A stretch of 64,000 bases of DNA from Isurus oxyrinchus (lineage: Eukaryota), in contig JANJGN010000041.1 in NCBI GenBank assembly GCA_026770705.1, positions 6,510,001-6,574,000 on the forward strand, given 5' to 3'. Positions 33-42,014 of the stretch are shown in pieces. A program made the translations under genes and the position numbers. Each line of letters starts with the position of its first letter. The stretch's first letter is position 1. Below the pieces are notes generated by a model that searched no databases, was not told the DNA's origin, and was given only the letters and a program-made list of their open reading frames with translations.

Positions 33-158
33 TATCAGAATCTGAGAACAGTACATTGGAATGTTCCAACAGTGGATCAGATTCTGAGAACAATGGATTG
101 GAATGTTACAACAATGGATCAGAATCTGAGGACAATAGATCAGAATGTTACAACAATC
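33..158 (+). repeat. Three 42-bp coding tandem units (MDQNLRTIDWNVTT type)
   Basis: Units resemble atggatcagaatctgagaacaatagattggaatgttacaaca, the same unit as at 2024-2314. Confidence 0.9.
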
Positions 159-1060
159 AATAGGAGTTTATTGGGGGCGGTTTATGAATTTATTACATTT
201 TATGATTGGATGTCAGTGGAAAGCTGGATATTTCGGGGCTCCGTGTGAATCAGGCTGATTACGATCCCGATCTCGCTATTATTTGCATCCCTGGAAAGTC
301 TCACTCTATATGGCTATTAATTCTATAAGCGATGCTGAACCGAATTATTTCTTCTTCATCAAAATTACAATTGTTTTGGGGATTGAAAATTTTTTATGCC
401 AGTTAAACAATCCAGGTAGCTTGGATTATCATTAACATCCGAGTTCAGCAATTTCAGTAACATATTTAGTGCCATTTATTCTCTACTGTCTTCCACCATA
501 TCAGTGAAATCACAGTCTATTATTGGCATTTACAATTGTCTCAATACGGCCATGAATGCAGCAACAGATTGGAAGATTTCAGCGCCTTTTGGCAAACGGA
601 TACTTGTTATTTACAAGCATTCTGATTGTTTATTGGGAATGGTTTCATTTCCTGTGGGCCAGGCGTCTGTGTCTTAACCATGCCGTCTTGCTTTATGCAG
701 CCACTGGCCGTTGTATCTGGTTCAGTGACATTCAAAATGGATCGATTTGTGGCCATGTATTTCCAGAAACTGAAAAGTAAATATTGCACCGTGAAAATGG
801 CTCTGAGAAGAATGACTGCTGTGCCTTTTCAAGAATATTTTCTGATATTTCATATTACCAGATTCATCACTTGGAATGCAAGTAAGGTCAATCTCAGGCT
901 GGATTGCATGAGGAAAAATAATCTGGAACATTTTCTGGTTTGAAAATGAAAAACAAAATCGACAGTGCTGCTCATTGAGCCTTCTGACAAAATATAGCCA
1001 ATCGTGGATGAACATGGAAATATTGAAGAGAAAAGACCACAAGGGAATGAGTCGCCTAAA
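33..1060 (+). pseudogene. GPR139-like GPCR pseudogene 1 (exon 1 ~33-293, exon 2 ~505-1060), heavily decayed
   Basis: Exon 1 reads YQNLRTVHWNVPT-VDQILRTMDWNVTT-MDQNLRTIDQNVTT...WMSVESWIFR, then a frameshift, then YDPDLAIICIP-G. The donor is mutated (GA at 294-295). Acceptor AG is at 503-504. Exon 2 fragments: NHAVLLYAAT (TM3) and MDRFVAMYFQKLKSKYCTVKMA. The 3' end is approximate. Confidence 0.8.
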
Positions 1061-2023
1061 TATATGCTAATTCAAAGTCTTAAGGTTGAGGATGGCTGGA
1101 ACAGAGAAGATATAAAGCAAACGACATAGCACTGTCTTTCAGTGTGATCCCTGAAGCAGTACATGGCTTCAAACGTTCTTTTTTAAGTTCTAAGATAAAT
1201 GTCTGGGGAAAGGAGCATATTTTAGCGTGTAGCATCTCTGTTTATAAACTGTAGCATTCAGGCAATTGTGCTTGAGTTGCTGAACCATCTGTTATTGTTT
1301 CCCAACAAAAACGATAATTGGCACTTGGTCATTCTTAGTCCGTATAGTTAACGAAAAACATACTTTCATCATCAACTCTACCAGGTACTTCATTAACTTA
1401 TGGCAATCGAGTTTGTCAGAGGCATTTGCTTTCATTAATGTGTCTCCTCTGGCTTCTACTTAGAAACCCATGTTTTCTAATCAACAAACTTATTTTGCCC
1501 CAGATTATTGAGTCTCTCTCATAACAATACGTTTCACTAACAGCTCTTTGATTCCTTGGCAGATACAACTTTATCCATCTGCCCTACGATAAACAGGGAG
1601 CAATATTGACAACAGTTTGGAAATAGTCCGATATGCAAGGAGCATTGAAGGATAGTGGTTAGTGTGTCCAGGATTTCCGCCATTCCTTCCCTCGTAAAAC
1701 CTCAGACATCCACATAAAAGCTGTAAAAAAGCTGCTTCATTAGGGTAAAATAGAAAGGGGTTAAGTTAATATTTCATATTATGGCATAATGATAACAGTC
1801 TCCATAGACCACAATTGTGCCAATAGAGCTAACACCTCTTCAATTAAAATGCTAATTCTTCCAATAAGCCATCTCATCTTAAAACATGGATAATCAGTGT
1901 GGCACTGTCAGGGGGCAGCAGCTCCAATGCGAAGGAGTGTTTATTTTAAAAACTGAGGACAATACATTGGGCCATTATAATGATCTGTCCGAACCAAGAG
2001 CCGCAGCTTGGAAACTTTCCACA

Positions 2024-2314
2024 ATGGATCAGGATCTGAGAACAATAGATTGGAATGTAACAACAATGGATCAGAATATGAGAACAATAGTTCAGAATGT
2101 AACAACAATGGATCAGAAACTGAGAACAATAGATTGGAATATTACAAAAATTGTGCAGAATCTGACAACAAAACTTTGGGATATTTCAAAAATGGATCAG
2201 AATCTTGGAACAATACTTTGGAATTTTACAACAATGGATCAGTATCTGAAAACAGTAGGTTGGAAAGTTTGAACAATGGATCTGGACCTGAGAACAGTCG
2301 ACTGGCATCATACA
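2024..2314 (+). repeat. Coding tandem array, about 7 x 42 bp (two 21-bp halves per unit), N-terminal ectodomain of pseudogene 2
   Basis: Units start at 2024, 2066, 2108, 2150, 2192, 2234 and 2276. Degenerate units lie upstream near 1940 and 1982. Confidence 0.95.
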
Positions 2315-2639
2315 AGAGGCAGGAGGTTACCCTGGTAAGTTCATTATATGTTGACGATTTATTGTGGAACCGCATTCAAATATGGGGTCCCAATGCTCCT
2401 TCAGGTTATTCAATGTTCTTGCTATCCAATGCTCGCTTTTGTTGGTGTGCATCGTAAGTCTTCCTCTCTCCAGTTTTTAAGTATGTAAAGAATGTTCAAT
2501 TCTAATGCTGTGCTTGAAATTCACATTCGTATCTTCAGTTCAGTTGATATCGCTGGATGTCTCTCTATCTAGCTGTTATATCTGGAAGGCACATTTCACT
2601 GATTAGCTGCACTATGTTCTTATTTTTCAGTTGAGCCTT

Positions 2640-3200
2640 GTATGGATCGAAGCCAGTGTCACCTGACTGCATCCGAAAATGTGTCCTCAGTCCACACATC
2701 CTGCACCAGCCACAGACCCCACCCCCTCCTCATATCGCGACACAGCCCAATGCCTTAAGTTCATTAAGAACGTTTGCTGATGGCCTGAGCTCAGTTCATA
2801 CCCAATACAAAACTTTCCGAAAGACTTTCCAAGACCACCGTCCTAATAACACATATCTCCAATCATACGTCGACCCATCTGCTGCATAAATACACAATCA
2901 GGGCATTTGTTTTCAAGTTGAGACCCATCTACTCATCTAATACCATGGCATCCGAGCCACAATCGCCTTCTGCAACGCACCACCCACCAGCTGCACTCTC
3001 TCCACCGCCCCACAACACCACCTTGCTCAAAATTCACCTCTTGGTTGCAAACCTTGATAAAACTAAACAGATACCAGGTTCTGCTGCCTGTAACCTGAGT
3101 GGAATCAAATTCCACTTAAAGACCGTTCTTGCGCTCAGAGAGTTACATGGGCTGACAGGCCGAAAGAGAATATTTTCATTCTTATATTGCTGCCCCTCAC
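2640..3200 (+). mobile_element. Old L2-like LINE remnant in the intron of pseudogene 2
   Basis: Decayed match to the L2 ORF2 C-terminal QNSAAR...ITPVL..LHWLP motif. A homologous copy lies at 6860-7400. Confidence 0.5.
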
Positions 3201-4160: not shown

Positions 4161-6597
4161 TTGCACTCTTCATGATAATAAATAAGGTCCTCCAATCTAT
4201 CCATGTCATTGTAAGCACTCACCTGCGGTGCCATTCTTGCCTGTTTCCTCTCTACCCTTTAGACATTATTCACATTATTTGTAACGTGAGCTGCACATTA
4301 TTCAGCACAATGCAATATGTTTAGAACCTTTACCCAATCTAATGTTTTCAACAGTTGTAGAGTAGCTTCCTGAGGTTTGCATCCATTCATCAAGCTGAAG
4401 GTCTTTGCTGCTTTATTAACTACTTTTCTTAACTTCTCCTGACGTGTTCAAATATTGGGAACAGTCACCCAGTGTCGCTGTGCTCCTGCACCTCCAATAA
4501 AATTGCGCTCTACGTTATAAGTATTGTACTTAGAAAAATTAATCTATCCAGACATACAACATTTCAAACATCCACCATTTGTTATTTCAGATAAAATCAA
4601 TTTAATATACTTACGGTGACAGTGGCACAATCAGAAATGACAATAAGTTATCAACTAAACATTTCTGCTAACCTAATGTATTATTTTCCTGTTTATTTCC
4701 ATTGCTCGCAGTTATATCGCTGACAATTCTGATCATTTCCCGGGCAAAGTGTAGTCTGTCCAAATGTGTAACTTACTGCCTGTTGGCTATGGCATCGGCG
4801 GATTTAGTGGTGATTATATTCGACATGGTATCGAGGCATATTCCAATTGTTCATCCGGAGCAGTTTCGTTTCCTGTGGTTCCTACGTATCTGTAATATCC
4901 ATGCTGTGCTGCTTTATGCAGACACTGATTGCTCAGTCTGGTTCACCGTCACTTTCACTTTCGACCGATTTGTAGCCATATCTTGCCGAATTCTGAAATG
5001 TAGATATTGTACCGAAAAGACAGCAGCTGTGGTTCTTGGAACAGTGACTGTGCTGAGCTTTTTAAATAACCTTTTCTGGTATTTCATGTTCACAGGACAG
5101 TATCAATAGAGGATCCTGCCCTGGGTTTGTTCTGTAATGCTACATGTTTACTACTCTAAGGTTTGGGTAACAATCGAGTTTGTCCATTACATTCTTACTG
5201 CCTGTTTCCCATTTGTCCTGATTCTGCTGCTTAATGTTTTCACGGTCAGACAAATTTTAGTGAGCAGCAGATCCCGCAGGAGACTCTGTGCTCAGAGCAG
5301 TGGAGAGGGGCTCAGAGATCCGGAGGTGGAGAGTCGAAGGAAATCCATGATTCTACTGTTTACTATCTCGCAAATTTCCTGCTGTTGTGGGCAACGATTA
5401 TGGTATATTCTGTATGGATCTGCATGCAAAGTTTGGGTTCTGAATCCATGTTACTGCATCTTTATGTTCAGGAACTGAGCTTCATGATGCAGCTCCTGAG
5501 CTGCTCCACAAATTCTTGTATTTATGCCCTGACCTTAACAAAATTCAGGGAGCAATTTAAGTATTTACTGCAATGTCCCTTTGCACCAATCGTGGAATCC
5601 ATTCAAAAAAGAGAGAAGAAATGATTCAGGGAAGGTCCAGCCATTTTCTCATTTAATTCACATTCCCAGTGGGTGGGGGTACTGTGCCGTTCGACAGAGT
5701 GACTGGAGGAGTTGGATAGCAACTGGAGGAGTTGGATAGATGTGAAACATCTGGTCCGCAGAGTTCCCAGGGAGCAGGTGGGTGGTGGGGGAGGGGTGGG
5801 GGGGATGTGGTGGGGTGTATTGGTGCTGTTTCCCTTGATGAGGGCATTATTGGAGTTGCGGCACCTGTGACTGCACAATGACTAGGGGGTGAGATCTGTT
5901 CCCCATGACCACTGCATAATATCGCAAGTTGGCCAGTGTCGGCAAAATGGAGAGGGGTGGGACTGTTCTTCATAATGACTTCATGATACAAAGCACAGGA
6001 ACTGTGGCGGCATCATAAGAAGCGCCTGCTTGCATTGTTGACAGCTTAATTTGAAGGATGGTTCCTCTGGCACAGCGGATATCGGGGCAGGACCAATCAC
6101 ATGATGACGTCATAACAAAGTTTGGATGGCCCTGGGATTGTTCAATGAACGGGGGAGTGATCTTGGCCCATTGATGACGGCACAATGGAAAGGGCCTTGT
6201 CCTGCTTCATTTGTCGGACACAATGACCAGGTTTAGAGCGAAGGACCCCGCCAGTTCCGCCCATTACGCTCACCCATTGACACAGGGAAAAAGTGTGAGA
6301 GTGCAAAGGTTCAACGCCATGTCCCTCCACATGCACTCTCCTGAACATCAAAGGGAACAGCAACAATATGAAAAAATCTAGCTTTTCAACTTCGTGCGAA
6401 ACATTTCTCCTGCACCGCCTTTAATTTTACCATTTAGTACTTGAATAATCCTGAGGACAATCAATAAATAGTAACATGATTAAAGCAAATCTAAATGTTC
6501 GCCAGTAAAAGCACAACAATGTCTCTGAAACCCCTCCGTCATTTACACCGACAAACACTAACCAACATCAGACGGTTGCAAGTTATAAACCACATTC

Positions 6598-6673
6598 GAA
6601 CATCGAGTTAGAAGAATGCCTCAGATTATTCAATACTTTTACTATCCCATCTTCGCAATTGTTGGTGTACCTT
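6598..6673 (+). pseudogene. Orphan exon 1 of a GPR139-like gene
   Basis: Reads EHRVRRMPQIIQYFYYPIFAIVGVP-T|GTATGC. The following sequence is homologous to the intron after 2454. In-frame stops lie upstream and no same-strand exon 2 was found. Confidence 0.8.
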
Positions 6674-8011
6674 GTATGCCTCTCAAATTATTAATTACAG
6701 AAATAATGCTCAATTGCAATGTTGTTTTTCAATTTCACTTACGTACCTTTATTTCATTTGGTATTGCTTGAATGCCTCTGTGTCCAGCTATTCGATCTGG
6801 AAGCCACATTTCACTGAACAGCTGATCCCTTTACTTATTATACAGATGAACCTCGTGAGGATTGAAGCCAGTGTCTTCAGTCTGCATCATAAAGTCTGTC
6901 CTCCATCCACACACAGTCCATAATGACACACCCCACACCATCGCTACCCTGCGACCCCATCCATTGTCTCAGGTTCATCCCGAGAGTTTGCTGATTGACC
7001 TGAGCTGGGTCCCACCCCAGATGCCCCCTTTCCGAAACCCTGCCAATTATCACCGCTTTGATATTACCTATCTCCGAAGGTGCCTCGTTTCAGCAGCTAC
7101 ATAAACCCACAATCTGGCCATGTGTTCAATTTTAGACCTATCTAAATGCAGACCCAACTACTCATCTGTAGAAATCTCATCCCAGCCGGACTCTGCTCCG
7201 CGCACCTGCCCCCCTTGTTCATGCTCCAGCTCCTAGTTATACACTTTAATAAATTTCATCAGGTACAACATCCCGCTGCCTGTAACGGACTTGAAACCAA
7301 ATCCCACTTAGCCATCGTCCCTGTGCTCAGTAGTTGACAAGGGCTGGCAGCACGAAAGTGAAAATTTTCATTATTCCATTGGTGGCACGAACTGATCTCT
7401 CACTTCAAGTGTGTCCAATTATCCTTCTCCTTCCCTATATTTATGCGATCGATTTCTCCCCTTCTGATTTTATTGAATTCCATTGTTAAACTGCTTTTCT
7501 TTGCCTCTGTATCTCTCCCTCGATTCACTGTTGCCAATCCAGGGAAACCTGTTTTCAAAGAATAAAAGTGCAAACCAGCTTTCTGATACTGGAAACAGTT
7601 TCACATTGCCGGCTCTATCATAGATCTTCAGGATTTGAAATCTCTCCTTGACCTTTACTGCTCGAAAGAGAACAAAACCCTGGTTTTCCACAACCCTCCA
7701 ATCTCTGGTAGCCTTACGGAAAATCAGCTCTAACTTTTTACCAAGTCTTTGCCAAAGTGTGGCTCTCGGAATTAGACCCCATACTCCATACTCAACCGCG
7801 TTGTTGCTGGCCCTCTTGAAGTTCCACATCTAATCCACTTGGTAGCCATGGTGCTTCCAGATCATAATGGTTCTCTGAAAGAGGCTGAGGATGCTCAGTC
7901 TATGTCAGTCAGAGTCTAATTATTAACCTCTATCACTGAGCATGCTGTGGATAGTGGTTGGGCAGATTATGAGGAGTGTGTGTGTTCTGTTTATGATTCA
8001 TTCGGTTCAGC

Positions 8012-8797
8012 TCAGCATTCAATCAGTTTTACAATCGTAGGAAAAGAGTATTTCATCAAAGCCTTCAGCTGCTCTCTGAAATTAATCTAGGTCACTTCAT
8101 ACAAACCAGTGTTTGGGCAGCAGCTCAGTAACAGCAGCATGAAGCATATTTCTCGAATATAAAGAGGGGATTGTAGCCTAACACTCCCATTCCCCACCAT
8201 ATACAAAACTCTGTTAATTCAGCCCATAAAAGGATGCAATTTCCTTAGATAACCAACAGTAAAATTATGGACTTCTTTCAACTCTCCAGCTCTGGGTCTC
8301 TAGCACTCTTAACTGCCGTGAGCCCCGAGTCTCCTGCGGGCTCCGCTCACCATGAAAAGAGACCTGACCGATAAAGTTTTGAGCACTAGAATAAGGCAAA
8401 ATGTGACACCCGGCGTAACAATGTAATGAAGAAACTCGATTGCTGCCCAAGCCCATGAATTCTGAGCATCCAATGTCACAACACAAGATCGGGGGTAATT
8501 GAATGGCCAATACGGAGCCATATACTTAAAATGCCAGAAAAGGTTCCTCAAACAGCTCAACAAAATGTCCTTTCCCAAAACCTCAGATGCACGTTTTCTC
8601 GGTGCAGCATTTTGTTCTCAACTTACTGTCTCAAATAGCCACAAATCCACCGAATGTAATAGTGACAGTGAACCAGACAGAACAATTTGTGACTGTATAA
8701 AGCAGAACAGCATAGTTATAACTCACGGGAATAAAAAACAGGAACATAAGTTCGATTTTATAATGAATGGAAGATGCCTCTGTATAAGGTCGATGCG
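8012..8797 (-). pseudogene. GPR139-like pseudogene 3, 5'-truncated exon 2
   Basis: Fragments with frameshifts and stops: IDLIQRHLP, LLYTVTNCSVWFTVT, KCCTEK, LSCLRNLFWHF, WAAIEFLHYIVTPGVTFCLIL, LLLSCCPNTGLY, FREQLKALMKY. Confidence 0.88.
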
Positions 8798-11350: not shown

Positions 11351-12699
11351 CTATTCTGGAAATCATCACTTCCTATTTAACCTGATATCACTGATTCACC
11401 ACAGCGAATCATTCATTAACATCGCTCACCAAGGGATTTGTCAGAAATCCTCAGCTGCAGAATTATCTACATTTCAACTGTGAAATAAACTCACCTGGCC
11501 CATACTCTCCAACTACTGGGAGAAACCAGGCACACAAAACCTTCAGCATGGAGCGGGGAACAGGAGTGAGAGGACAAGCGACAAACAATTGAAGTAAGCC
11601 ATGAGAGATTGAAACAAGAGTGAGAGTGAAGAGATGTGACTGGAAAATGGTGGAAGAGAGAAAAAGGGCTGGATTAGGGTAATTTTACAAAATACCCTCA
11701 ATTACAAAATTCCAATGTGCTGATTCACTGCGTCCAACTCTCTTTATTTACTGCATCCCACTCCCCACACTGACTACGTCCAACACCCCTCAGTCATTAC
11801 CTCCTGCTCTCGTCACTCACTGCGCCCCACTCCCCTCAGTCACTGCATCCCACTCCCTAAAGTCACTGCATCCCACTCCTCTTAGTCCGTGTCCCACTCG
11901 CCTCAGCAAATACACACTTCGCCCTCAGTCAACACATCCAAATATCACCACTGAATAAATCCCACTCCCTCGGTGAATAAATCCCACTGCCCCCGCTGAC
12001 TACATGTCACTCCCCTTAGTCACAGCATCCCACTCCCCTCAGTCAGCACACCCCACAATCTTCAGTTTCAGTTCGCAGTGATCACATTGTGTGAAGATTT
12101 TCTGTAGAATATCCTCTCCAAACTGATACCTAATATTTCACATCCTTTTGGGCTGGAGGTTCAGGAAAATGACTTTTCGAGTCTAGTGTTCCTGAGATTC
12201 CAGAGTTAGTGTTATCCCTGGATCTGAAATGAAGATAGGAGACATGGGAGATTGCAAAGCGCATATCAGCTCAACAGATCATGCAACTAGTATTAAAGTT
12301 GAGAAAATGTTTGAATTCTTAATTATAGAATTTGGAGCATATCAATGTTATGGTTGTCAGCCAATACGCATTGCACCCCAGTAACTAACTCCCAGTCCCC
12401 TGAGTCACTACGCGTCACTGACCTCACTCACCAAATCACACTACCTCCACTCATTTTAGCCTTATCTCCTCATTCGCTCTATCCCACCATCCTCAGTAAG
12501 GAGAAACCTCTCCCCTCAGTCACTAAATCTTACACCCATCACTGACTGATTCCCATTCCCCTCGCTGATTGCTTTCCGTTCCCATCACTCACTCCATCTC
12601 ACTTCCGTCATTCATTGCATCCCACGCCCTCAGTAAATCCATCCCACAGCCCTCAATCAGTGCATCCCAACCCCGGAATCAGTACATCAGACTCCCTTC

Positions 12700-15460: not shown

Positions 15461-16804
15461 CGGCCCCTCAGACGCTACATCCCTGTTACTCTGTCACTAC
15501 ATCCCATACACCTCAGTCATTGCATCCAAATCCACTCACTCACCACATCGCACTCCCTTCACACAATGCATCCCAATCCACTCACACACTACATCCCACA
15601 CGAACTCAATGACAAAATCCCTATCCACTCAGTCACAACATCCCAAACACTTCAGACAAAACCTCCCACTCACCTCAGTCACAATACTCACTCCCCTCAC
15701 TCAGTACTCCCTTCTCGCATCAGTCACTAAATCCCTTTCCCCTCACTGACTCCATCGCCTTCCGATTAGACACTATATCACATTCCCAAGTCACTTGATC
15801 CCATTCCACTCACTCAGCATATCGCACTCCACCCCATTACTGCATACCAACTCCCACAGTACATCGATTCCATCCCTCAATCATTATGTCCCACTCTCCT
15901 CAGTAACTACATCCTACTCCACTCAGTCACTGCATACCAATCCTTTCAGTCAGTGGACTAACATGTGTTCAGTCAATTCATCTCGCTCCATTCAGTCACC
16001 TAATCCAATTGCACTCAGTCACCACACCACACTCTGCTCAGAGGATGCGCCCCGCTCCCAGGCTAAAATTGGCTCAAGTGGCCGCTACAGTGACGGGTGG
16101 AAAGGGAACAGATAAATAAAGCTAAAGTGCACACCACAACATCCAGGACAATGGAACAGAATAAATTCCCATGAAGACCTTCTGGGCGAAGGAAGGGCAG
16201 GAAACTGGAATGGATTATGTTAATGAAGATAAGGGTGAGGGGCAGAGCGATTGTCTCCAAGCTTCATAATTAAAGGGACAAGAGCTGCAGAAATCAGATT
16301 TAAAGCCAGAAGTGCTTACATGGGCGATAATGACTGAAAACATGGCTGAAGGTCTGTAACTCTTTGCTAGGACCTCTGAAGTTACTGTACTGTCATAGCT
16401 GATTCGGTGAGAGAGAGCATATCGTAGGCAACTTGGATTCATGTGGCGGCTCTGTGAAGAAGAACATCAGGAAGAGATTTTGAAACCCACAGCTGAAGCA
16501 ACGTGAAAGGCGCCTGAGAGTAAGCGCCCATTTGGGAGACGATTCCAAGGTGAGGACTTGGAGAGTGGAGAATGGAATTCCTCATGTGAAAGACACAGTG
16601 TGGTTAGCCGAGTAGGCCCCGATGTGACAGGTGTCTTGAAGGAGTTGATGAGAAATCTATAGCATCTGGTTGAGGTGGCAACTGTCACTTGATGCCAAAG
16701 TGTGGCTTACATGATCACAGGGTGTCATAATTTTGCATGAAATGTAAACGTACTGTGAAAATTCGCGTATAGGATAGCTTTGAACCTTGTGTTATCCTTT
16801 CAAA

Positions 16805-26869: not shown

Positions 26870-29800
26870 TCATTTGCCTGATTTTACGCACAGTTTCACA
26901 AGATACTGCATTCCGCTCTGCAGCTCCCCCCTAAACTTAGCCTGTGTCAGAACATAGATGAATGTATTTGTGCAGCAACTGAGGACCCCAAGCATAGATC
27001 CAACTGACTCTAGCTCATGTGGGACAGATTTTGATATGGTTGTTACACGCAGAGAGATACAATATATAACCGAAGTTGTCCAGAGAAGTATAAAGCTGCT
27101 GGTTATACTGAAGAGTAAAATAATGGACTTTCTTCGGCTTTCTATTTCAGAGTCCTTGTGATGCTCTCCATTGCTGCAACCACGGAGACCCCTGCGAACT
27201 TTACTGGCAAAAAAAACACATCTTCCCGTCAAAACATTTAGCAACAAAATTAGAATAAAGGGAACACATGGGGTCAAGATAATGGTAAACAGGTCAAATG
27301 CAGCCCATTCAGCAGAAAGGAAAAATGTCTGTTTTGGGACACAACCATGATTTACATTGTCTATTATATACGCAGGTTCATGCGCAAAGTACCAGGGAAT
27401 GTTTATCAAACAACTCAAAACACTCACCACTGAAATGACAGCTACTGCGGTAATCTCCGTGCAATATTTTTTTCGAAGTTTCTTACAACATATGACCACA
27501 AAACGATCGAAGGTGAACAACACTGTTAACCAGACAGAGGCGGATGTGACGACATAAGTGAATGTCACAGTTAGTTGGCACACTGTGCTCATGGTCAAGA
27601 ATGAAGCAGGGAAATAATTATTCAGCATATTGTTAAAAATGACTTCAGCACAAACAACCAGGAGATCCGCCATGGCCATGGCGATCATATAGAGGGTAAT
27701 ACATTTTGAGAGGCCACACTTTCCTCGGAAAAGAATCACAATAGCAGCAACATTAACTGTAAGAGAGGGATAGAGAGAGCAAGTGGTAGAAGGCACAAAT
27801 GAACATGATTAATTTTCTTCCTGTTGCAGCAAAGGTTCATCCATTTGACCCAAATATGCACAGTCTGCATTCCGAGGTGAGCAGGTTCTAAATGTAAACT
27901 GGAACTACTGAAATTGGAACCATCAGTTGATAATTCGCTTTTTGGAAGCAACAGCTTCAACTTAGACTGGACAATTATTGTTCAATAACGATTGATAATG
28001 CTGAGGGCGAATGTGTCCTGGACAATTTGAAAGCACACAAACGTCTGGGCATGGTGAATATTAAAAGGTAAATGAGAGGTGAAAAGTATCAATTCATGTG
28101 TGTTTGTGCAATGTGAAGTTGGAAATGAATGCAGAAAAAAATATCTGGGCCAATTCGAGACCTACTCTGGAAGAGGTAGTGGTGCAATGTGTGCTGGGTC
28201 ATCTCCAGATGTGATAAGTACTGGGAAGGATCACTGTGCTACAGGACTTACAGCTTGAAGGTAAACTATTGCCCAGGGGCACCAACTTACTCTGAACGCT
28301 TCTGGGGGTAAAGATGGGATGGTAAATACACAGGAACAGAAAATGGTCACTGAGCTATTTGAAAGACCAGAATCAATCAGGCCGAATGCCAGTTTACACC
28401 GGAGTTATCACAGTGGCAGTACAATGACAATCAGTACAAGGTAAAAATCTTATGCAGGTCCCCAGGGAGAAGTTTTATTTGGGGATGAGAGCTAATCAGT
28501 CATGTGTTTTAAGTCAGCCTGAGTAATGTGAGATTGTTATGCTGGCTGAGCGTTGTGCAGGATTATTTCAACTGAATGCATCGCTAAAACATTGCAGAAA
28601 GACGGAAGCAACATTGCTCTGCAGAATGGGTGCACTTGGTGCTGATCAAACGGCCAGTTAATGGCTGACTCGGACCAGTGACACGGCTGTCAGTTTGAAT
28701 GGGCAATATTTATTCGCCATAGGGGCACATTTCTTTCAAAACATAGTCAATGAGCAATTTGATGATGTGATTCTTTTGAGGTCATAACTAGCGTTTTGCT
28801 TCCGAGTGACAGGACAGAGTTCCCATTAATTAATGAGCTTCAAAACAATCACTTTGTTGCCTAAAGGGCAGAATGGTGTCGCTTGCATCTTAAGTACAGC
28901 ATCCGTGCAAAGTGAATTGAAATGTGAAGCTGACAATTAACTTTTGCATGGCACCAATTGCAGAAGAGCGCAGTAAAAATTCACCATAATGGGCACATCA
29001 ATTTGAGTCTATAGACTAATATTTGTTCAGAAAAGTCAAATTACGAATTGTCGATTACCTGAATAAAGACCTAGCACCTAACACACCCATGTTTAAATTA
29101 TTATCCTCTACTGCTTATTTCATTTCATATTGGCCAGCCTCATACAACCCAGGAACCTTAGCTTTTTTTGTTAAAAAGCATATTTCTTTTTTTCAAAATG
29201 CAGGAACACCTTTAGAGAATTAGCGAAGTTATTCAATGTTGCCTTATTTTACAAAGATTAACCTCAGATATTTATACTGATTACTGAAGGAATTATATGA
29301 TCTATATAAATCAAGCTAAATTTGTGTGAGCCTCAGATATTCACGGTTGCATTATGATTTCTGTTGTTTACTTAGTAAATGTCCATTTTAATTTTGTAGA
29401 ATATATTTTCTAAGTGAATCTCAGTGAAATAATTTGTAGCTGCCAGATATGTAATAATTTGACGCGCACGTTTATTAGATTAGTTTCGGCATTTCAAAGC
29501 AAGTTAAATATCTACAGACTGAATTATTATCGAAAGTACGCAATCGGCTCGCTACTGATATTTTGTTTGCCGTTCTGGTGGTGATGCTATCGGACAGGAT
29601 GTCTTGGCTCTGCAAAGGAGCAGAATAGCTTTCCAACTGAAATCTGCAGTCAGATTGGGGAGGCACAGATTAGTAAATGGATAGTGAACATTCTCACAAT
29701 AATGGGATGAGTGGATAGAAAGTTATTTCAAGTACGAACTGGTTTCATGCCTGTGCAACATGATGCAGACTGAACGTAGATTTTCCGCAAACTTGAACTC

Positions 29801-32800
29801 AGGGAAACAATAATGCATTGAACGTCTATAAACGGGGTGGTGAAGTAACAATTTGGATCATATTATTTCAGTAAGTTGTTGGTTAATGATTCAGATGAAC
29901 TTTGAATGAAGTAAGGCGAATTAGTCGGATAAAGCTTTTTATATTTTTGAATCAGATTCCAAGTTGGCAAGCTTTGAGCATACAAACGAAAAATGAAGAA
30001 AATCTATTCGTGTTACATACACAGTCCAGTTGGCAGCCTCCGATTCACAATTCCCTAACTGGAATGCAAGCATCAAACATTGATTGACTTAATGGAGCTG
30101 TCAAAGATAATCACAAACAGCCTTGAAAACGCCAGGCAATGGATAAAAATTAAAGTTTGAACTTCTCTTGACCATGTAGGATGCAGTGGTAAAGTTGGAA
30201 AGATTAGAATTCAAAGCTTTTTTGACACAATTGCAGCTTAAAATAAATGTCGAAAATGAAAATTGACCTTCATTTACCCGATACCTATTATTATTTGAGC
30301 AAACCTAATACTTATGTTCCTTCAATGACATGCATTTAAAATGAGAGACATAATTTTCCGTGCACTATTATGAATTATACAAAGACTGTAGATAAATTAT
30401 CAGCACTTGAAACAGTACTGATGACCACTGTAAATAAGGAAACAGCTTTAAAAATATAGTAATTTAAATGATTATATAATGAATCAGCCAATGCTTGAAC
30501 AAAATAATTATCAATACTATTATCCAATAAATTATCAGTATATTTCCAGAAATTGTCTCGGAGAGTAAACGTTGAAATGCCAGAGGAATGAACTACCAAT
30601 TATCTACCTAATTAAATAGTGACATATCCAAACCATTATCCACTATTTCGCTAGCAAATTAAGTATACAGGCAACAAATATATTATCAACATTATTCACT
30701 GCTAACTAAACTAAAGAAATGAACATTTATATATGCTACAGAATTACCCTTTGCTCTCTGCAACTGCAAGCTGCTTCTGGCCTGTTATTAATTGCTGTTT
30801 GGGAAGAGTAACATGGAGCAGGTTTGGCTTATGTGCCTATTGGTGTCCTTTCTGCAACCACCCGAGTCTGAAGAACTGCAGAGCGAAGGAGGTTCCTCCA
30901 GCGTCCCAAATCCATATCACTTTAACAGCAATGTTATATTCGCAATGTATGTACACAATAACAATTTTCTATGCCATATTTTGCATGCAAAACAGATCCT
31001 TAATGGGTAATTCATTTGTGAATGTTGTTGCGAACGCACAACCGAGTGTGATCCACTGGGTTGTGATTGTAGTTATGACCCATTGCTGCAGGCTCCATAG
31101 CAGCAGTTACACAGGAGAAGTGACACAAATCCTCCGGTGCAGGTACAAAACGCTAATCGTGATTTAAAATCATAAAGAAACATTACAATAAGTGGAGAGC
31201 GGCTTGGATTTTACGTTTTTCGGCAGCGTGAGATTAGTGAAATGCAAAACCAACCCTTTTCCTACTCACCCGCTCTTAGACCACTTCCCGCTCCACAATT
31301 CGTTAAATTCCTACGGCGAGCACGCATTGAGTGATGCAAAATGGGGTCCGCATCCAATCGGCAGTGAAAGCCTGAACATTGTTATTCAGAGTGTAATGCG
31401 GTGAACAGAAAGTTGGTATGGCTGCAAGCTCAAGTCCACCTGCTCTTAGAAACTGTTTTTCCAAAAATGTTTTTCGTTGAAAGCTCAAGCAAGAAACAAA
31501 AAAAGTGATATGTTAACCTGAAGGCGCTACCACCTTCCCTAGCAGAATCTGTTGCTACATTTAATCATGGTCCCGGAGGCAGAACATCTCTTCCGCACGA
31601 TTCTCGCCTGGTGGTAGCTGTCCAGGATCATTCCCTCTCCTCTGTGCCACCACAAGTGCAAATCTCGAATCAAGAAAACGTACAATTGAGTCGTTCACAA
31701 ACTCAATAAGTTGCTAATTAGTAACTTGTAAAAGGAGGGCCCGCCCGTTCTCCAACTGCAACTGGGAGATTCATGTACCTGACGGCATGAGACCCGATTC
31801 ACGTCATTGATCTTCGTGCAGATTCGGCATTTCTGTGGGAGGTGGGGGGTGGGGAATCGGCCTTCTGAGAGATGAGTGAAGGGTGGGGGGGGGGGGGGGG
31901 GGGGCGGCGGTGGGGGGGAACGTGATTTGCAGACAAATTTCCAGCCAATCATTTTGGTAAAATTTTTAGCTACTCAGAATTGAATTCAAAATGTACGTTT
32001 TCAGTTAGGGGCCAGTGTTCTCCGAAATGATTTACATTTAAACATGCATTTTGGATTTAATCTTTGTTGAGTTGGAAAAAAAACAGCCAGGGCCGTCACT
32101 TCAATGCAAAAAGGCCATCAATATTCATAGATTCGTCATTGTGCAGCATTTTCATTTTTTTGGATATTTTGACAAGATTAGCACCTTCACTAATTCTTCT
32201 TGAAAGTAAGGGTTTTCTGGTGCTGCTGTCCATGTGAATGGGGTGCAGAGAGAATGCTGCGAGCAATGGATTTCCAGGTTGTCGATCCAGTGACAGTCAT
32301 GGAACGGTGATCGAAATCCAAGTCATTTTGGTATGTGATTTGGAAAGGGTTTTGTAATTAAGAGTGTTCCCATGCCTCGTCTGCTCTTGTCCTTCCTGGC
32401 TCCCGAGGTTAAGTTCAGAAACGACGGAACATTGCAGGCATCTGGCATATGTCCACAGCAGCAACGATCATACCTAACAACTCGGATTAACTTGGTGAAA
32501 TGCACGACAGGGCTACTTGAAAGCAAAACAGCATGAGAGAGACAGGGCTCATTCATCCCCCTTTCGAATTTCGATAGCTGAGCTCTGAATTCCTGTCACA
32601 TTGCCTTGAATGTTGCTGAAATATTCTGCAACTCACTGCAGAATTGCTCCCACCAATATCCCCATTGGCAATGATTGTGGAGCGCAGCACACCTTTGCAT
32701 ATACATGGCTGAAGAATTTGCAGCCATATTCACCCTGAAGTGACGGGTGGATGAACCATCCCGGCCTGCTCCTACGGATGACAAGTATCACAGATGCCAG

Positions 32801-35800
32801 ACTTCATACAATGTGATTCTCGGCACTCGAAGTTAAGGACTGACTAAAGGAACTGGATGATGCAGATAATATGCGTCCTTTTAGATAGTGTCAGTATTAC
32901 TGGTATTCAGTGCTCCAAACTAAGCCTTCCTATCCTAGCTGGTATCGTGCTTTTAAAGAGCTGGCATATACACAAAACTGTGAACATTTTCACAGGCACG
33001 CCTATCCACAAAAAATAAGGACAAATCCAAACAATATCATTACAGCCCCACCTGCCAACACATCATCATGATCAACTGAAGAAAAGTATCATGGAAAATT
33101 CTTTTAATCGCCACGTACTCGGCAGTAAACTGCTCACTGATGCTCACTTTTTGCTTTGTGTGAGCTCCAGCTCGCAGTTCGGCCGTGGTCCAAACATGGC
33201 CAAATGTTTTGCACTGATAAGGTGAGGAGAGAGGGGCTGTGTTTTATATCAATACAGCTGTTTTCACACTGTGGTATCAACGAGGGCTATGATAACTGTA
33301 GTCAATAAGAATAGGGAGCACCTTCCCCACTGCTTGAAGTCAAACCAAGCATAAACGATTTATTTTTTTTAATTTATAGCCAGACTTGTGCTGAATAATG
33401 ACAAGTAATATTCGCCCCACAATATTGACAGGTAATGACCACCTGCACCAAATTAATATCCAACATAACACGCTTGAGCTTTAATGACATTACCATCGCT
33501 TAAGCCCACATTTTCAGAATCATTGGACAAGCCATTGACAAGAAACTGTGAGTAGAAGGACAGGTCAAAATCTGAGAATGCTGTGGTGAGCAATGCACCC
33601 ACTGACTCTCCAAAACCTTTCCTCCATCTAAAATGCATAAATCAGGGATGTGATTGGTTCCGCTACACCTGCCTGGATGATTTACGCTCCAATTGAATTC
33701 AAAGGTATTAACTGAATCCAGGACAAAACAGGCTGCTTGATTTGGAATCATTCCATAAATTTAATGATTCATACTGCTTATCCTTATCTGAATAAGTCCT
33801 CTTACTGCGTTTAAAGTTCATATGAATCTGCAGCAAACATCTGATTGAAATTATATTATCCAAAATGGGGAGTATCCACCCAATTTGTCGGTATCACTCA
33901 AATGTATTACTGCTTTCCTAAATATCATTTTGCAAAACTTTCAGTGTGCACCATTTATCATATCCTTGAGTACACGTGGTTCTTAAGTGAAATCTCATGA
34001 TATCACGTATTACATTGGCAAAGAATGTCTCCTCCTGCTGACCACCTCCCGTTTCCCTCAGCGGATGAAACAATGATCATCAATGGCCGACGTTTTGGGG
34101 AGTGAGAAGAAAAAAAAAACGCTTTACATCGGGGACCTCGATGTCTGTGAGCAAGAGAGGATCAGGGGCACCACTAATGACCGAGCTGGCCGACTCATAA
34201 AGATAACTGCTAGACTGGGTCTTTGGCAGGTGGTCAGGGAACAAACCAGTTGCAAAACTCTAAGTGAATTCGCTGAACCAAACTACCCAACACAGGGGCA
34301 TCTGTCCATTGAAGGATTGATAGTATTGACCACCGCACGGTCCTTGTGCAGACGAATTCTGTCTTCAGACTGGTGCTTCCCTCCATTGTATTGTGTGAGA
34401 CAAGCATTGTGCTAAATGGGGTAGATTTCACGTTGATCAAGAACTAAAAATTGCGCATTCACGAGGCACTGTCGACCATTGGAACGAGCTGATTTGTGCA
34501 CAACCATAATTTGTAACCCCAAGTCTAGCGTGTCCCCAAATCTGTAGTTTTCATGTGGTCTGGTATTGGTGATGTTTCTGATGCCAGTTAAGCACTCTAC
34601 CTTGCTCCTTTGGTGTAGATTTCATTACGTTTTGTTGTAGCTCTGCGACAAGGAATGTTCAACAGATCACTTATTGGATTACTGTTAATTAACTGGGATT
34701 GTCCTAATAGAGACATTGACGAGGCTCCCCCTCTGCTTTCTGGAGCATTGGCAAATGAGAAGTGATCTCACGGAAGCAGTCACCCCTCTTATAAGTTTCG
34801 GTGGTGTACATCTTGGATGGATGATTCCACTGGCTGGTGTGTCTAAAACCAGGAAAAGCAACAAGGTCTGCATTTAGAACTGAGATGAGGAAGAATTGCA
34901 TCACTCAAGAAGAGGTAAATGTTCGAAATTATGTACCACAACCTCGGCAGATGGGCAGTCATTGAGTATGTTGAAGCTGCCGATGAACCTAATGTGCAAT
35001 AATAAATGCATCCAAAGATAGGGGATAGTGCATGGAATGTCGTGGAGAAATACTTTCAGTCATGATAGACTTGAATAGTGGAGCACCATCGTGCAGTCAA
35101 ATGGTCAACTTCTACTCGTATTTCCTGTGCTGCTATATCCTTCTATCAGCGCCACCATGTAACATGACAATGTTTGTTTCCCAAAGCCAAAGGCAAGTGC
35201 GACAATGCCTATTATCAATCTATTGCAATTCTCAATTTAGGTTAGTTAGATTTGGAAGCAGGTTTGCAACAGCAAGAAGTAAAGGGCTAGACATTTAAAT
35301 GAGCAGAATAATGAGAACCAGATAACTACTCGGGGAGCATAGGTGTTCCACAATCGGACCATTTATGTCTCAGTTAGCAATCTTTGTGCTAAGATAGATG
35401 TTTCATTACTTACGTCCTGGCGTCAGTACTGGTGAACAAAATTGTCAGCCAATGCGCCATTGCCATAGTGAAGTAGTTCTGCACTATAGGATGCAGTAAC
35501 TTTCAAAACAGATGTCAGTTCGTTCTACAGGGAAAACATCAAAGATTCCTTGTCTCTATTTCAAACATCGACATTGTCGTAGCCCCTTAGGTCCTGACTA
35601 CCATTTAAACTTCTGCTAAATCCCACAAAACGGATCATCTGGTCATTGTCAACTTGCTGCTTGTCGAATCTTCCCGACCGTTTGCATCACTTCAGTGACT
35701 ACACTTCATAAGAATCTATTAAGCTGGTCGATAATTGAGGTTGTAGAAATGCATGTATTTCAATAGACAAGTGACTAAGACATCGGAATATCTTCTGCAC

Positions 35801-36366
35801 ACACAGCAATCTGTTTCAGCCAGACTACGAGATATCCTCTCTGCATACAGATTTGTAAAAATATCGCTATCGTAATAAGTATCTGATCTGACAGGGATCC
35901 CGGTATTGAAGTATTGGAAACTGGACGATAACCATTAGCGACGGCTGCAAGTATTTCAAGCATAATTTTGTAGAATGCGAATTAGCCTCTGCACAGATAT
36001 TCACAGATTGTGTTTTCTCCAAGTTGAAACTCGGTTTGCACCTGATTATGATAATTATTGCAGAGCCTGCACGGTTACATGACATTCCGTAAAGCAACAA
36101 TAAGGTGTCAGCAGTGGAGACCATGGAATGAATGATATAGCAACAGGTAGAAATCTATTAACGTTATGGTTAAACGTACATCCCTTCTATGATGATTTCC
36201 CAAAATTAAAGAAATGATTTCATGTTATCGGAACGGGCGTTTGAGAAGAAGATCAACATCCATTTATATGTGCAATGATTGTATTTAGGCTCTTACCAGG
36301 AACACCAATAGCCGCAAGAATAGGATAGAAAATGGCTTCTATCTGGCGAAGTATCTTTAATCCCAT
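26870..36366 (-). CDS. Apparently intact GPR139/GPR142-like class A GPCR, join(36366..36297, 27756..26870), 318 aa
   Basis: Exon 1 (70 nt) is MGLKILRQIEAIFYPILAAIGVP-G|GTAAG. Acceptor is ctctcttacAG|TT, giving V-N-V-A-A. Exon 2 is open for 887 nt and has MAMADLL, a TM3 Cys, FDRF, an ECL2 Cys, TPCVPF, ESRRKSIILLF and SCCTNTFIY. The exon pairing across the 8.5-kb intron is inferred from phase and homology. A candidate AATAAA lies at 26659-26654. Confidence 0.9.
30748..31152 (-). pseudogene. Decayed B7/PD-L1-like IgV exon inside the GPCR intron
   Basis: Pieces across frames: ITLGCAF, ELPIKDL, KIVIVYIHCEY, SAVLQTRVV and KDTNRHISQTCSM...ARSSLQLQRAK-G|GTAATT (phase-1 donor). Confidence 0.45.
32600..33750 (+). 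mobile_element. LINE family A ORF2 fragments
   Basis: Homologous to the reverse complement of 20390-21850 and to 43000-44290. Confidence 0.65.
34080..34545 (+). mobile_element. LINE family A endonuclease fragment
   Basis: LYIGDLDV...GTTNDRAGR...ARLGLWQVVREQT (APE GDFN region). Confidence 0.75.
34820..35140 (+). mobile_element. CR1 3' fragment
   Basis: tttagaactgagatgaggaagaatt...cactca motif and a CR1-like tail. Confidence 0.65.
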
Positions 36367-39229: not shown

Positions 39230-39700
39230 ACTAAAATAGGGGTTCACAGTTCTGCTTCAGGCGACAAGCCCTGTGGGGATGGAGGATTGGGTACAGGGGC
39301 AAGGCTGTGATTCCTGGAGGCCCCCAGCCAATGTCCTCTACAAATGCCTCCGATATGTGGCGGTCGTCGGGTACATTTTTCGGGAAAAATTTGCCTTTCC
39401 ATACCTGCTTCTGCCACTTAGCAGTCCACGTCCAAATGGGCGGCCATATAATATGTTGTAAGAATATTCTCCAGGTCACCCTAATGCACCGAAGCCTTAA
39501 CACCAGGGAGAGGGAGGAGAATGCTGCTAATCACTCAGCTTGGCATCACCCGGTCCATCCAATCAAAAACCGCTTCCGGTCTCAGCAGCTCAACAGAGTC
39601 GTGGAAAGGCTGAGCCAGAACAAGGAGAAGTGAAACAATCTGTGACTTTGATTTCAACTCCTCAGTGGTAAAAACGGTGGAAGAAAATGTAGGTCCAGAA
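39230..39700 (-). mobile_element. Tx1/L1-like ORF2 C-terminal fragment
   Basis: AHLDVDC*VAE, resembling the HLL.EC zinc-knuckle region. Confidence 0.4.
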
Positions 39701-40184
39701 TGTGACTCCTCAGTCATCTGAAATCGCACTGAGCCTAACGGACTTCATTCTAGGTACTGAGGGAATGCCACTGACATCAAAGAGATGAAATGCACAATTT
39801 CAGGAAGGTAGGGCATCTCCACATTTTCAAGGGCAATTTGGATCGAACATTAACTTGGCCCATCTAACCACATCCCCGCCACATGAAAGGATATATTTGA
39901 AAATATGATTGTGAACAAACATTCAGCACAACTAAATGTAGGAATCATCCAGTGATTTCAGCCTTTGTGGAGAACAGAGTCAAGCGCCTTAAGGAGAAGG
40001 AAAGGCGGGCAAGGTTAGTTTATTCCCCCTGAATGTACTTTTTATGCAGAAATTGGCAATCGATTGTGCAAGTATAGACCTGATCTAATCTCACTCGTGA
40101 TATCACACTGACATTTTTTGCAGCGGACTCACTTGTCGAAGGGCCGGGAAAAATAATCATCAAGATAGTTATACGGACTGACCA

Positions 40185-40268
40185 AAAGACAGACAGACAG
40201 ACACATAGATGCACAGACAGACAAACATTCCAATGGATAGACTGATTAGAACAGAAAGTTTCATGCGG

Positions 40269-40300
<32 letters not shown>

Positions 40301-40420
40301 ACGAGCAACAAATTGAGCTTGCGAGTGAAAAAGCAAGGGAATGTGAGACCGAGATGGATGGATAGATAGATATATATGGAGTTGGATAGATAGTTAGATG
40401 GATGGATAGATAGATTGAAA
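40185..40420. repeat. Compound microsatellite (GACA)n/(GA)n/(GATA,GATG)n
   Basis: Directly visible. Confidence 0.9.
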
Positions 40421-41179
40421 GATAAGAACATGAAGGGCTGAAATATAAGTCCTTCTTGCAACAAATAACCCCTGTGGATCATTGACAAAGACGACCTTGA
40501 AGCAAAAAAGGTGATTGTGATTTTAAAAAAACACAAAAACGCAATGAATGTATACGTACGAATATTGAACACGAATAAAATTGGGAATTTTGCCTGACAA
40601 ATCCCCCTTAATATCAAATCAGATATGACGTCCAGGAATTCGGTCTCTGACATTCGAACCTAGTAGCAAATAAAACAATTTGAAGGATAGCAATTGCCTC
40701 GTGACCTTTATCATTTATGTTCATCAGTAAAGCGATTGCTATTTTTTCTACAAGAACAGGCCGACGTCTGGGAACACTGTTTAACTCAACTCATCACTCC
40801 CCAAAATATGTGCAGTATCTGCAAGGGACAATTGTGGAATGCGTTAGGTTGGAAACATGGGCTGGCCAAATGGAGTTGGGGGTTGGTGGGTGGGGGTGCT
40901 GGGTTTTGCGGGTGATGCTGCTGGGAGGGGTCCTTGTACAATTGGTGTGAAGGGAAAGGGAATTCGACCAGTGGATTGCCCAATGCAAGTTTGCTTATTC
41001 TGAGTACTATGATGTCTAATCAGTGAGAGGAACCTTCATGTTGTAAATGCCAATTCTTCAACAGACAATGATACCATTTGCGACCAGCCCCACGATTCTT
41101 CATTTTCCTTGCTGTCATGCCCCTCCAAACGCTGAAAACCTGAAGTAGCAGTGGACAATGCTGCACACGAACTCTGTTT

Positions 41180-42014
41180 CAGTTATTTTAATCATATCCG
41201 AGTACATTCTTCAAATGCAATCGCAACATATTCGGTAACATAATATACATGCAGATCATTGTGCATAACTGAGGAGCTCCAGAAGGATGTCAATAACTTG
41301 GCTAAATTGTCTGCATGCGTTAAACTGGACAACACATCCAACATCTGCTACCACAGAGAATAAACCATAAATGCTGACAATAACTAGCTGCATTTTATTG
41401 AGAGGACAAAAAATTAAATGTTGCATTCCCTTCGATTTTCCATCTCCCTGAAAGCCCGGAGTCTCCTGCAGCTTCTGCTGGTCAGTAACCTGTGCCTGAC
41501 AGTGAAACCACTGACCAGCAGAAGCAGGACAAGTGTTCTCTCCCTGGTTAGAATGTGATTGAGGAACTCGATTATTCTCCAGGACAGAGATTGCGGGTCA
41601 TTTATTGCCTCATCACAGAGCGGGTTTTTATTGGTAGCCAATACTCATTTGCCAACAATAAATATCAGGAAAGGTTCCTAGAACAGCCCAAAAAATTTGA
41701 GTATGACCTGAAGCTTAGCCGCTGTTTGTCCAGCACAATACTTACATTTCAGATTTTGCCAACAAAAGGCTACAAAGCTTTCAATGGGTGCGAGTGACTG
41801 TGAACCAGTCAGAAAAGTCAGTGGCTGATAGCGTTGGCATTACACACGGGGTTGGAGTTCAAGAAACGAAACTCTTTTTAGAAAACAATCAGAAAGTGTC
41901 GAAATGTCAGGCTGAGGAAAGCAGGTTTGCCACTGTCATAGTCACCACTTGCTGAGTGTCACATTTGGAGAGACCACACTTCCTGCAAATGTGTCCGAAT
42001 CATCACTATGTTAG
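41180..42014 (-). pseudogene. GPR139-like pseudogene 4 (exon 2 only)
   Basis: Acceptor cttacgctcAG|CT-AAC. Fragments RKCGLSKCDTQQVVTMTVANLL and WRIIEFLNHILT...GFTVRHRLLTSRSCRRLRA...EMENRR. Frameshifts and deletions; exon 1 not found. Confidence 0.85.

What the first reader, a model, noticed from the sequence alone, without database searches (positions are those of the whole stretch)
33..42014. Birth-and-death cluster of divergent GPR139-like receptors: candidate lineage-expanded sensory receptor family
Seen: six related units in 42 kb on both strands, comprising one intact gene, pseudogenes ranging from 4 lesions to heavily eroded, and an orphan exon. They share KCxLSKC, FDRFVAI, KYCTE and E(M/I/V)E(S/N)RR motifs. 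A phase-1 intron in TM1 is present wherever a junction survives. Extracellular loops and N-termini differ widely. Known: GPR139 and GPR142 are single-copy aromatic amino acid sensors in mammals, and clustered birth-and-death evolution is the hallmark of chemosensory and immune receptor families. Inference: this is part of a large repertoire that could sense amino acids or peptides. Expansion of such genes may already be visible in shark annotations; I know of no established function.
Basis: partly seen in the sequence, partly recalled or inferred. Interest (0 to 1): 0.8.

Follow-up and report, generated by a model that had tools for sequence, protein, structure and literature searches.

The report
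Expanded shark receptor family, possibly chemosensory
This stretch of shark DNA holds one intact and several broken copies of a cell-surface receptor that sharks and rays have multiplied many times over, and because its binding pocket differs from copy to copy, as in smell and taste receptors, it may be an overlooked way these animals sense chemicals.

Summary
Confirmed, with corrections. The 'orphan exon' may be the first exon of an inverted neighbour.

The family is large: 2,117 protein clusters matched. The 120 shown come from 11 shark and ray genera (one unnamed), with at least 45-49 distinct members each in two species, more than the ~35-40 V2Rs thought to dominate shark chemosensation.

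It is not GPR139 itself. It groups (99.9/100) with a conserved, apparently single-copy amphibian and sturgeon gene, apart from a second GPR139-like orphan that sharks also keep. The four GPR139 Trp/Phe-binding residues occur together in 1 of 174 members.

Pocket positions are the most variable helix sites among shark paralogs (p=0.005) but the most conserved in the single-copy relatives, while activation motifs are near invariant. That fits a repertoire tuned to many ligands.

A chemosensory role is the best guess (0.55). No expression data were found. Ten literature searches found no description.

The parts
26870..27756 (-). Intact gene, exon 2 (end of TM1 to C-terminus, stop included)
   Evidence: Open frame; Pfam 7tm_1 E 2.4e-21; AG acceptor; seven-helix model, mean pLDDT 77.6; 79% identical to Cetorhinus and Carcharodon proteins
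36297..36366 (-). Intact gene, exon 1 (ATG, short N-terminus, most of TM1), phase-1 GTAAG donor
   Evidence: 83% match to residues 1-23 of P0001; exon-1 profile 25 bits against control maximum 5.7
33..293 (+). Unit 1 exon-1 relic: 42-bp repeats coding N-glycosylated N-terminal repeats; donor reads GA
   Evidence: tandem repeat 34-157; match to P0237, E 8e-16; junction read by eye
505..861 (+). Unit 1 exon-2 relic (TM1 end to start of TM4), frameshifted and truncated
   Evidence: profile E 4.9e-9
2024..2453 (+). Unit 2 exon 1: glycosylated 14-residue repeats and TM1; two stops; phase-1 donor at 2454
   Evidence: (match to P0248, E 2e-25)
4712..5624 (+). Unit 2 exon 2, young pseudogene: one stop (5107-5109) and one -1 frameshift (~5372)
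   Evidence: 59% identical to Stegostoma P0145 over the alignment
6588..6673 (+). Unit 3, exon-1 relic with phase-1 GT at 6674; intron homology runs to 7384; may belong to unit 4
8018..8794 (-). Unit 4, exon-2 pseudogene (5 stops and 4 frameshifts in the alignment to P0147); no exon 1 found upstream on this strand
40452..40704 (-).
   Evidence: profile E 2e-7
41194..41984 (-). Unit 6, heavily eroded exon-2 pseudogene (6 stops and 8 frameshifts in the alignment to P0145)

Best explanation
The cluster is one outpost of an elasmobranch expansion of an old jawed-vertebrate orphan class A GPCR from the GPR139/GPR142-related branch. Copies arise by local duplication and spread over many chromosomes, and many die (shown). 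Survivors keep the activation and G-protein-facing machinery and the TM3-ECL2 disulphide but re-tune the pocket, so each paralog likely binds a different ligand (pattern shown, binding inferred). The most likely use is a chemosensory repertoire for water-borne or luminal small polar molecules and short peptides, read in sparse cells of the nose, mouth, gill, skin or gut epithelium (inferred; tissue and ligands untested).
For: Size: 2,117 clusters at 90% identity with E<=1e-5 among 3,268 candidates. Of the 120 shown, 46 are Heterodontus, 45 Heptranchias, 28 nine other shark and ray genera, 1 unnamed. The 46 Heterodontus entries lie on 27 contigs, 13 of them over 15 Mb, up to 8 on one. Turnover: 1 intact gene among 7 segments here. 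Constraint over 174 members: R3.50 and N5.58 100%, D2.50 99%, W6.48, N7.49, Y7.53 98%, P5.50 97%, C3.25 96%; ECL2 Cys in 171 of 174. Pocket entropy 2.19 bits (35 sites) against 1.68 for other outer-half helix sites (67) and 0.91 for inner halves (94), permutation p=0.005. The same sites are the more conserved ones in 20 amphibian orthologs (0.11 against 0.49) and 46 orphan orthologs (0.59 against 1.06). The pattern holds within one species: Heptranchias p=0.008 (n=45), Heterodontus p=0.002 (n=49). Pocket net charge ranges from -5 to +6 over 172 members, against +3 in 20 of 20 amphibian proteins. Known shark chemoreceptor families are small: OR 8, TAAR 5, ORA 6, V2R 35 (PMC6368271, passages). 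The wider clade binds aromatic amino acids and aromatic-ended peptides (PMC8557429, passages).
Against: No expression evidence was found for any member. A variable pocket with births and deaths also describes immune and irritant receptor families such as FPR and MRGPR (recalled). The catshark nose appears to consist of Go- and TRPC2-positive microvillous neurons with robust V2R expression (PMC10116579, passages), so it needs no new family. The 50 most nose-specific genes included no GPCR, though no V2R either (PMC11979771, passage). The pocket-site list is recalled, not taken from this model. Many database members are unverified gene models, some fused to neighbours. In pairwise tests the pocket excess was significant for window against Cetorhinus (14 of 35 against 11 of 67, p=0.014), but not against Carcharodon (p=0.22) or between those two (p=0.76). 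No dN/dS could be run.
Confidence: 0.55

Rival explanations
1. Innate-immune or tissue-damage sensors on granulocytes, mast-like cells or barrier epithelium, diversified against microbial or parasite peptides, as FPR and MRGPR families are in mammals.
For: Same evolutionary signature. MAS1-type receptors are reported missing in cartilaginous fishes (PMC8455134, passage), which leaves the role open. One catshark model is fused to an integrin alpha-X-like gene, so they are probably neighbours.
Against: No 'receptor 139' or 'GPR139' row in the held supplements of a bamboo shark immune atlas. None of the 11 'coupled receptor' rows of its shark sheet is of this family (30 of 46 places seen). This is weak: the file was cut, aliases would be missed, and sparse expression would not make a cluster marker.
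Confidence: 0.18
2. Receptors for conspecific or reproductive signals (peptide pheromones, seminal or uterine factors, gamete or kin recognition).
For: The protostome sister clade includes the MIP/sex-peptide and RFamide receptors (PMC8557429; PMC12208981). The model has an ECL2 hairpin, and the top fold matches are peptide receptors, though E-values barely separate them. One subfamily has glycosylated N-terminal repeats.
Against: No expression data. Some sub-lineages span distant sharks and rays (window gene + P0001, P0002, P0004, P0007: 99.2/100), slower than expected for species-specific signals.
Confidence: 0.12
3. Mostly neutral amplification in repeat-rich shark genomes; a few copies keep one ancestral job and the rest are decaying passengers.
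For: Six of seven segments here are broken and lie among retroelement relics and minisatellites. Many of the 150 representatives are fragments.
Against: Full-length members with near-invariant switches but a selectively variable pocket. 44 of 45 and 48 of 49 distinct 14-site pocket signatures within species (these 14 sites were chosen). The intact gene has open-frame relatives in two other lamniform sharks (100/100).
Confidence: 0.1
4. Ordinary GPR139-like brain or gut sensors of tryptophan and phenylalanine, multiplied for dosage.
For: GPR139 is the best solved match for the gene (E 7.5e-8) and for the profile (E 2.3e-19, next 1.1e-12). W6.48 is kept; F or Y at 3.33 in 48% and H at 5.42 in 39%.
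Against: All four residues needed for Trp/Phe activation (PMC5430874, results part 1) occur in 1 of 174 members; the window gene has Y, T, W, S. P6.50 is kept in 4%.
Confidence: 0.05

Closest known systems
Amphibian/sturgeon orphan annotated 'probable GPR139' (for example Pleurodeles XP_069092602; Xenopus tropicalis P0399; sterlet P0415)
   Same: Sister or parent lineage: joined with the shark family at SH-aLRT 99.9 / UFBoot 100 and FastTree 0.999; 28% identical to exon 2; shares ICL2 and ICL3 layout.
   Different: One cluster per species in 20 amphibian genera, 66-74% identical; fixed basic pocket; keeps P6.50. No function known to me.
Conserved jawed-vertebrate GPR139-like orphan (coelacanth XP_005988539; possibly the 'GPR210' of PMC6504862, identity not verified)
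   Same: Same branch; 113 bits to the query; also auto-named GPR139.
   Different: A separate clade (99.8/100) with its own shark orthologs (P0278, P0281, P0285; 60-66% to coelacanth) and a conserved pocket.
Human GPR139 (PDB 7vug, 9m42) and GPR142
   Same: Nearest solved receptor by sequence; W6.48; TM7 without the usual proline; similar TM1-TM3 motifs.
   Different: Only 35 bits. The family has C3.25 and an ECL2 Cys where the aligned GPR139 chain shows none, a longer ICL3, loss of P6.50 and a replaced Trp/Phe site. GPR142 was not compared.
Vertebrate chemoreceptor repertoires (OR, TAAR, V1R/ORA, V2R, T2R; rodent vomeronasal FPRs, recalled)
   Same: Clustered copies, pseudogenes, and a pocket that is variable among paralogs but conserved among orthologs.
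   Different: Different ancestry: Pfam gives only 7tm_1; a coding intron in TM1; sensory expression not shown.
Nematode srw-type and other invertebrate expansions from FMRFamide/MIP-receptor relatives (recalled)
   Same: Same deep branch; some relatives carry precomputed PF10324 or PF10328 labels.
   Different: An independent vertebrate expansion; no direct relationship tested.

Membership tests
Class A (rhodopsin-like) GPCR | 7tm_1 domain, seven helices, DRY-like and TM7 motifs | tested here: met
   Pfam E 2.4e-21 above cut-off; model and fold search; motif columns
GPR139/GPR142-related branch | GPR139 nearest among characterised receptors | tested here: met
   Best PDB hit for gene, profile and both sister clades; amphioxus 'GPR139' among next relatives. 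PDB lacks many orphans, so this ranks solved receptors only.
GPR139 proper (ortholog) | Closer to GPR139 than to other vertebrate genes | tested here: not met
   35.3 bits to human GPR139 against 114.5 and 113.1 to two other vertebrate orphans (both phmmer). No true GPR139 or GPR142 sequence was available for the trees.
GPR139 proper (ortholog) | Trp/Phe site F3x33, H5x43, W6x48, N7x38 | tested here: not met
   All four in 1 of 174; window gene Y, T, W, S. Positions were mapped by eye from the alignment.
GPR139 proper (ortholog) | Single conserved copy | tested here: not met
   45 and 49 distinct clusters in two species; mean helix identity 58%, minimum 32%
GPR139 proper (ortholog) | Habenula and brain expression; Trp/Phe activation | not testable with these tools
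   No expression or assay data
GPR139 proper (ortholog) | Shared TM1 intron position | not tested
   The GPR139 gene structure is recalled only; no genomic GPR139 sequence was fetched
OR / TAAR / V1R / V2R / T2R | Family-specific profile or ancestry | tested here: not met
   Only 7tm_1 at E<=0.1; nearest relatives are GPR139-like orphans
Chemosensory repertoire (works like) | Birth-and-death multigene clusters | tested here: met
Chemosensory repertoire (works like) | Pocket variable among paralogs, conserved among orthologs | tested here: met
   contrast reached by 0 of 20,000 permutations
Chemosensory repertoire (works like) | Positive selection at pocket codons | not testable with these tools
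   No coding DNA of relatives was available; only protein-level proxies
Chemosensory repertoire (works like) | Sparse expression in sensory cells; response to external chemicals | not testable with these tools
   Catshark multi-tissue supplement unreadable; other supplements negative or nearly empty

The most novel reading that the evidence does not exclude
This is an unrecognised vertebrate chemoreceptor family, recruited independently of OR, TAAR, V1R, V2R, T1R and T2R from a neuropeptide-receptor branch, and the largest sensory receptor repertoire of sharks and rays. It would answer why animals famed for chemical sensing seem to have only about 60 chemoreceptor genes.
Probability: 0.4. Interest if true: 0.92.

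Novelty: new variant of a known kind. Interest (0 to 1): 0.72.

Why it matters
Papers describe shark chemoreceptor repertoires as small and V2R-dominated (PMC6368271; PMC10116579; PMC11979771), and GPCRs as relatively scarce in cartilaginous fishes (PMC8455134). A class A family with at least 45-49 distinct members per genome in two species, hidden under the automatic name 'probable GPR139', already exceeds the V2R count. The total per genome is probably much larger, since only 120 of 2,117 matches were shown. If sensory, it makes the small-repertoire puzzle testable with existing shark RNA-seq. If immune, it is a new shark innate receptor family. The conserved Xenopus and axolotl relative offers a tractable route to the ancestral ligand and cell type.

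Tried and rejected
Literature: ten searches found no paper on this family. 'GPR139' with 'chondrichthy' gave 0 papers, and 'coupled receptor 139' with 'shark' gave one snail genome paper. The library lacks most subscription journals and bioRxiv supplements were closed, so prior description is not excluded.

Expression hunts failed. The catshark multi-tissue supplement was unreadable. The nurse shark spleen and catshark retina supplements held only 4-5 thousand characters. The whale shark supplements had no GPR139 entry and one GPR142 orthogroup (one file cut). The GPR210 Ensembl ids were not in the held supplement, so that identity stays open.

Fold search confirmed class A but did not discriminate among receptors, and GPR139 was not in the 50 rows shown. 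Support values printed were shifted by re-rooting and were recomputed; shark-only monophyly is weak (FastTree 0.86; not recovered by IQ-TREE). The AU test against joining sharks with the other orphan gave p=0.029, with a warning of too few replicates and a fast constrained search.

No other gene was found in the window: 81 of 94 frames of 88 aa or more were scanned and gave one sub-threshold hit, seven frames were scanned, and Rfam gave 0. No chimaera, lamprey, teleost, lungfish or amniote member of this lineage appeared among named hits, but those searches cannot show absence. Three distant unnamed hits (P0261, P0265, P0266) stayed unidentified. No complex prediction was run, as no partner is known.
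Full report
OBSERVATION. The window is shark DNA: the closest proteins are from basking shark and white shark at 79%. A profile of 119 named relatives finds six exon-2 segments, with E from 5e-135 to 2e-7, against a best E of 1.1 in the reversed window. An exon-1 profile finds three first exons at 25.0, 16.4 and 11.4 bits against a control maximum of 5.7; a fourth, eroded one at 33-293 is found by tblastn. One gene is intact: exon 1 at 36366-36297 and exon 2 at 27756-26870 on the minus strand, joined by an 8,540-bp phase-1 GT-AG intron, give 318 aa. The rest are broken: unit 2 has four lesions, unit 4 about nine and unit 6 about fourteen, the counts depending on the alignment. The orphan exon and unit 4 match the two halves of unit 2 at the same level (66% and 64%) on opposite strands, which suggests one gene with an inverted second exon; this is not proven.

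WHAT IT IS. Exon 2 is a class A GPCR (Pfam 7tm_1). The model has seven helices, an ECL2 hairpin and helix 8. The word-index search returned 2,117 clusters at 90% identity among 3,268 candidates. Of the 120 shown, 119 are named shark or ray proteins, mostly 'probable G-protein coupled receptor 139': 46 from Heterodontus and 45 from Heptranchias. Look-ups added five more genera, 16 in all. The Heterodontus entries lie on 27 contigs, 13 of them over 15 Mb, so the family is spread in many clusters. These counts are lower bounds from the 120 closest matches. The 2,117 total spans many genomes and may include broken models and a few non-members.

ANCESTRY. The unfiltered profile search (647 hits at E<=0.001, best 150 shown) gave two nearest non-shark relatives. 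One is a salamander protein (114.5 bits). A search from it returned 25 proteins: 20 amphibian clusters, one per genus, one sturgeon and four elasmobranch members. The other is a coelacanth protein (113.1 bits) that belongs to a conserved orphan of fishes, amphibians and reptiles, with its own shark orthologs; this may be the GPR210 of PMC6504862 (passage), unverified. Trees of 131 and 68 sequences, rooted on a bedbug receptor, join the shark family with the amphibian and sturgeon gene at 0.999 and 99.9/100; monophyly of the shark copies alone is weak. Human GPR139 is the best solved match but scores only 35 bits, and true GPR139 and GPR142 were not in the trees. So the lineage goes back to the jawed-vertebrate ancestor, stayed apparently single-copy in amphibians and expanded in elasmobranchs. 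The annotation name marks a branch, not orthology.

HOW IT PROBABLY WORKS. Across 174 members (the window gene, 119 named hits, 49 representatives, 5 further named proteins; three unnamed rows dropped), the activation residues and the TM3-ECL2 cysteines are near invariant and the inner loops are conserved (ICL1 0.59, ICL2 0.93 bits), while ECL3 (3.04), the N-terminus (2.61) and ECL2 (2.17) vary. At 35 generic pocket positions (list recalled, fixed before the test) entropy is 2.19 bits, against 1.68 at 67 other outer-half helix sites (p=0.005). In the two single-copy clades the same sites are the more conserved ones. The result holds within single species and with within-helix permutation (p=0.002 to 0.008). 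Of the 25 most variable helix positions, 17 are pocket sites. The four residues needed for Trp and Phe responses in GPR139 (PMC5430874, abstract and results part 1) occur together in 1 of 174 members. Pocket charge runs from -5 to +6. Shown: duplication, loss, conserved signalling core, diversified pocket. Inferred: each copy binds a different ligand, probably small polar molecules or short peptides, given the clade's known ligands (PMC8557429, passages). Not shown: tissue, cell type, G protein, ligand.

A SUBFAMILY. Units 1, 2, 4 and 6 match best to one sub-lineage (five members form a 100/100 clade), and the unit 3 exon matches N-termini of the same type. Some members carry tandem N-terminal repeats with glycosylation sites, also in catshark and zebra shark models. 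By contrast, 0 of 92 short N-termini carry such a site. The intact gene belongs to another sub-lineage, shared with Heptranchias and Heterodontus proteins (99.2/100).

RIVALS. An immune role fits the evolutionary pattern equally well. The bamboo shark immune atlas lists no member among its markers, a weak negative (PMC11372145, supplements only). A reproductive role is possible. Neutral amplification does not explain the selective pocket variation. A plain Trp/Phe sensor is unlikely. Against a nasal role specifically, the catshark olfactory neurons appear all microvillous with robust V2R expression (PMC10116579, passages), but that study tested only the four known families.

WHAT IS KNOWN. The expansion is visible in database annotations, but ten searches of the library found no paper describing it. 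A 2025 GPR139 review does not mention sharks (PMC12208981, passages). The catshark sensory genome paper has no 'GPR1' string in its main text (PMC11979771, passages and section 13; supplement unreadable, and it may bear on expression). The whale shark paper speaks of a paucity of GPCRs in cartilaginous fishes (PMC8455134, passages and supplements). PMC10529500 and PMC11806052 were seen only as listings and small supplements. Subscription journals are mostly not covered.

VERDICT. A real and large birth-and-death GPCR family with the sequence signature of a many-ligand repertoire. It is a new variant of a known kind, apparently undescribed, and its sensory role is likely but unproven. Interest 0.72.

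Noticed in passing
window 6588-7384 (+) and 8793-8018 (-): The orphan first exon and the inverted second-exon relic have equal divergence from unit 2 and may be one gene broken by an inversion.
   Followed up: partly
window 37026-36967 (-): Weak echo of a first exon about 600 bp upstream of the intact one (8.2 bits against control maximum 5.7).
   Followed up: partly
window 34-157 and 2021-2296 (+): 42-bp tandem repeats code 14-residue N-terminal repeats with glycosylation sites; also in catshark and zebra shark members. Possible stalk of variable length.
   Followed up: partly
proteins P0222, P0396-P0415: A conserved amphibian and sturgeon orphan GPCR with N at 2.50, S at 1.50 and a fixed basic pocket; no teleost or amniote member appeared. 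Worth deorphanising in Xenopus or axolotl.
   Followed up: partly
proteins P0205, P0192, P0214, P0281: Database models fuse family members to integrin alpha-X-like (catshark), sodium channel (Mustelus) and trypsin-like (skate) genes, and the other orphan carries a TMEM183A name; probably neighbours or mis-joins, useful for synteny.
   Followed up: no
window 12692-15599: A 1.5-kb direct duplication at 78% identity inside a 23-bp minisatellite region spanning about 11.7-17.7 kb.
   Followed up: no
window 18482-18718, 21513-21665, 9.8-10.2 kb, 24.5-25.3 kb, 43.0-44.3 kb: Decayed repeat copies, some with reverse-transcriptase-like similarity, probably LINE relics.
   Followed up: no
window 62241-63990: CCAT-type microsatellite array with five N runs, 980 bases in all.
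   Followed up: no
window 26870-36366 (intact gene): Its pocket differs from the basking shark relative at 14 of 35 sites, while basking and white shark differ at 6 of 35; possible recent re-tuning, significant in one of two comparisons.
   Followed up: partly
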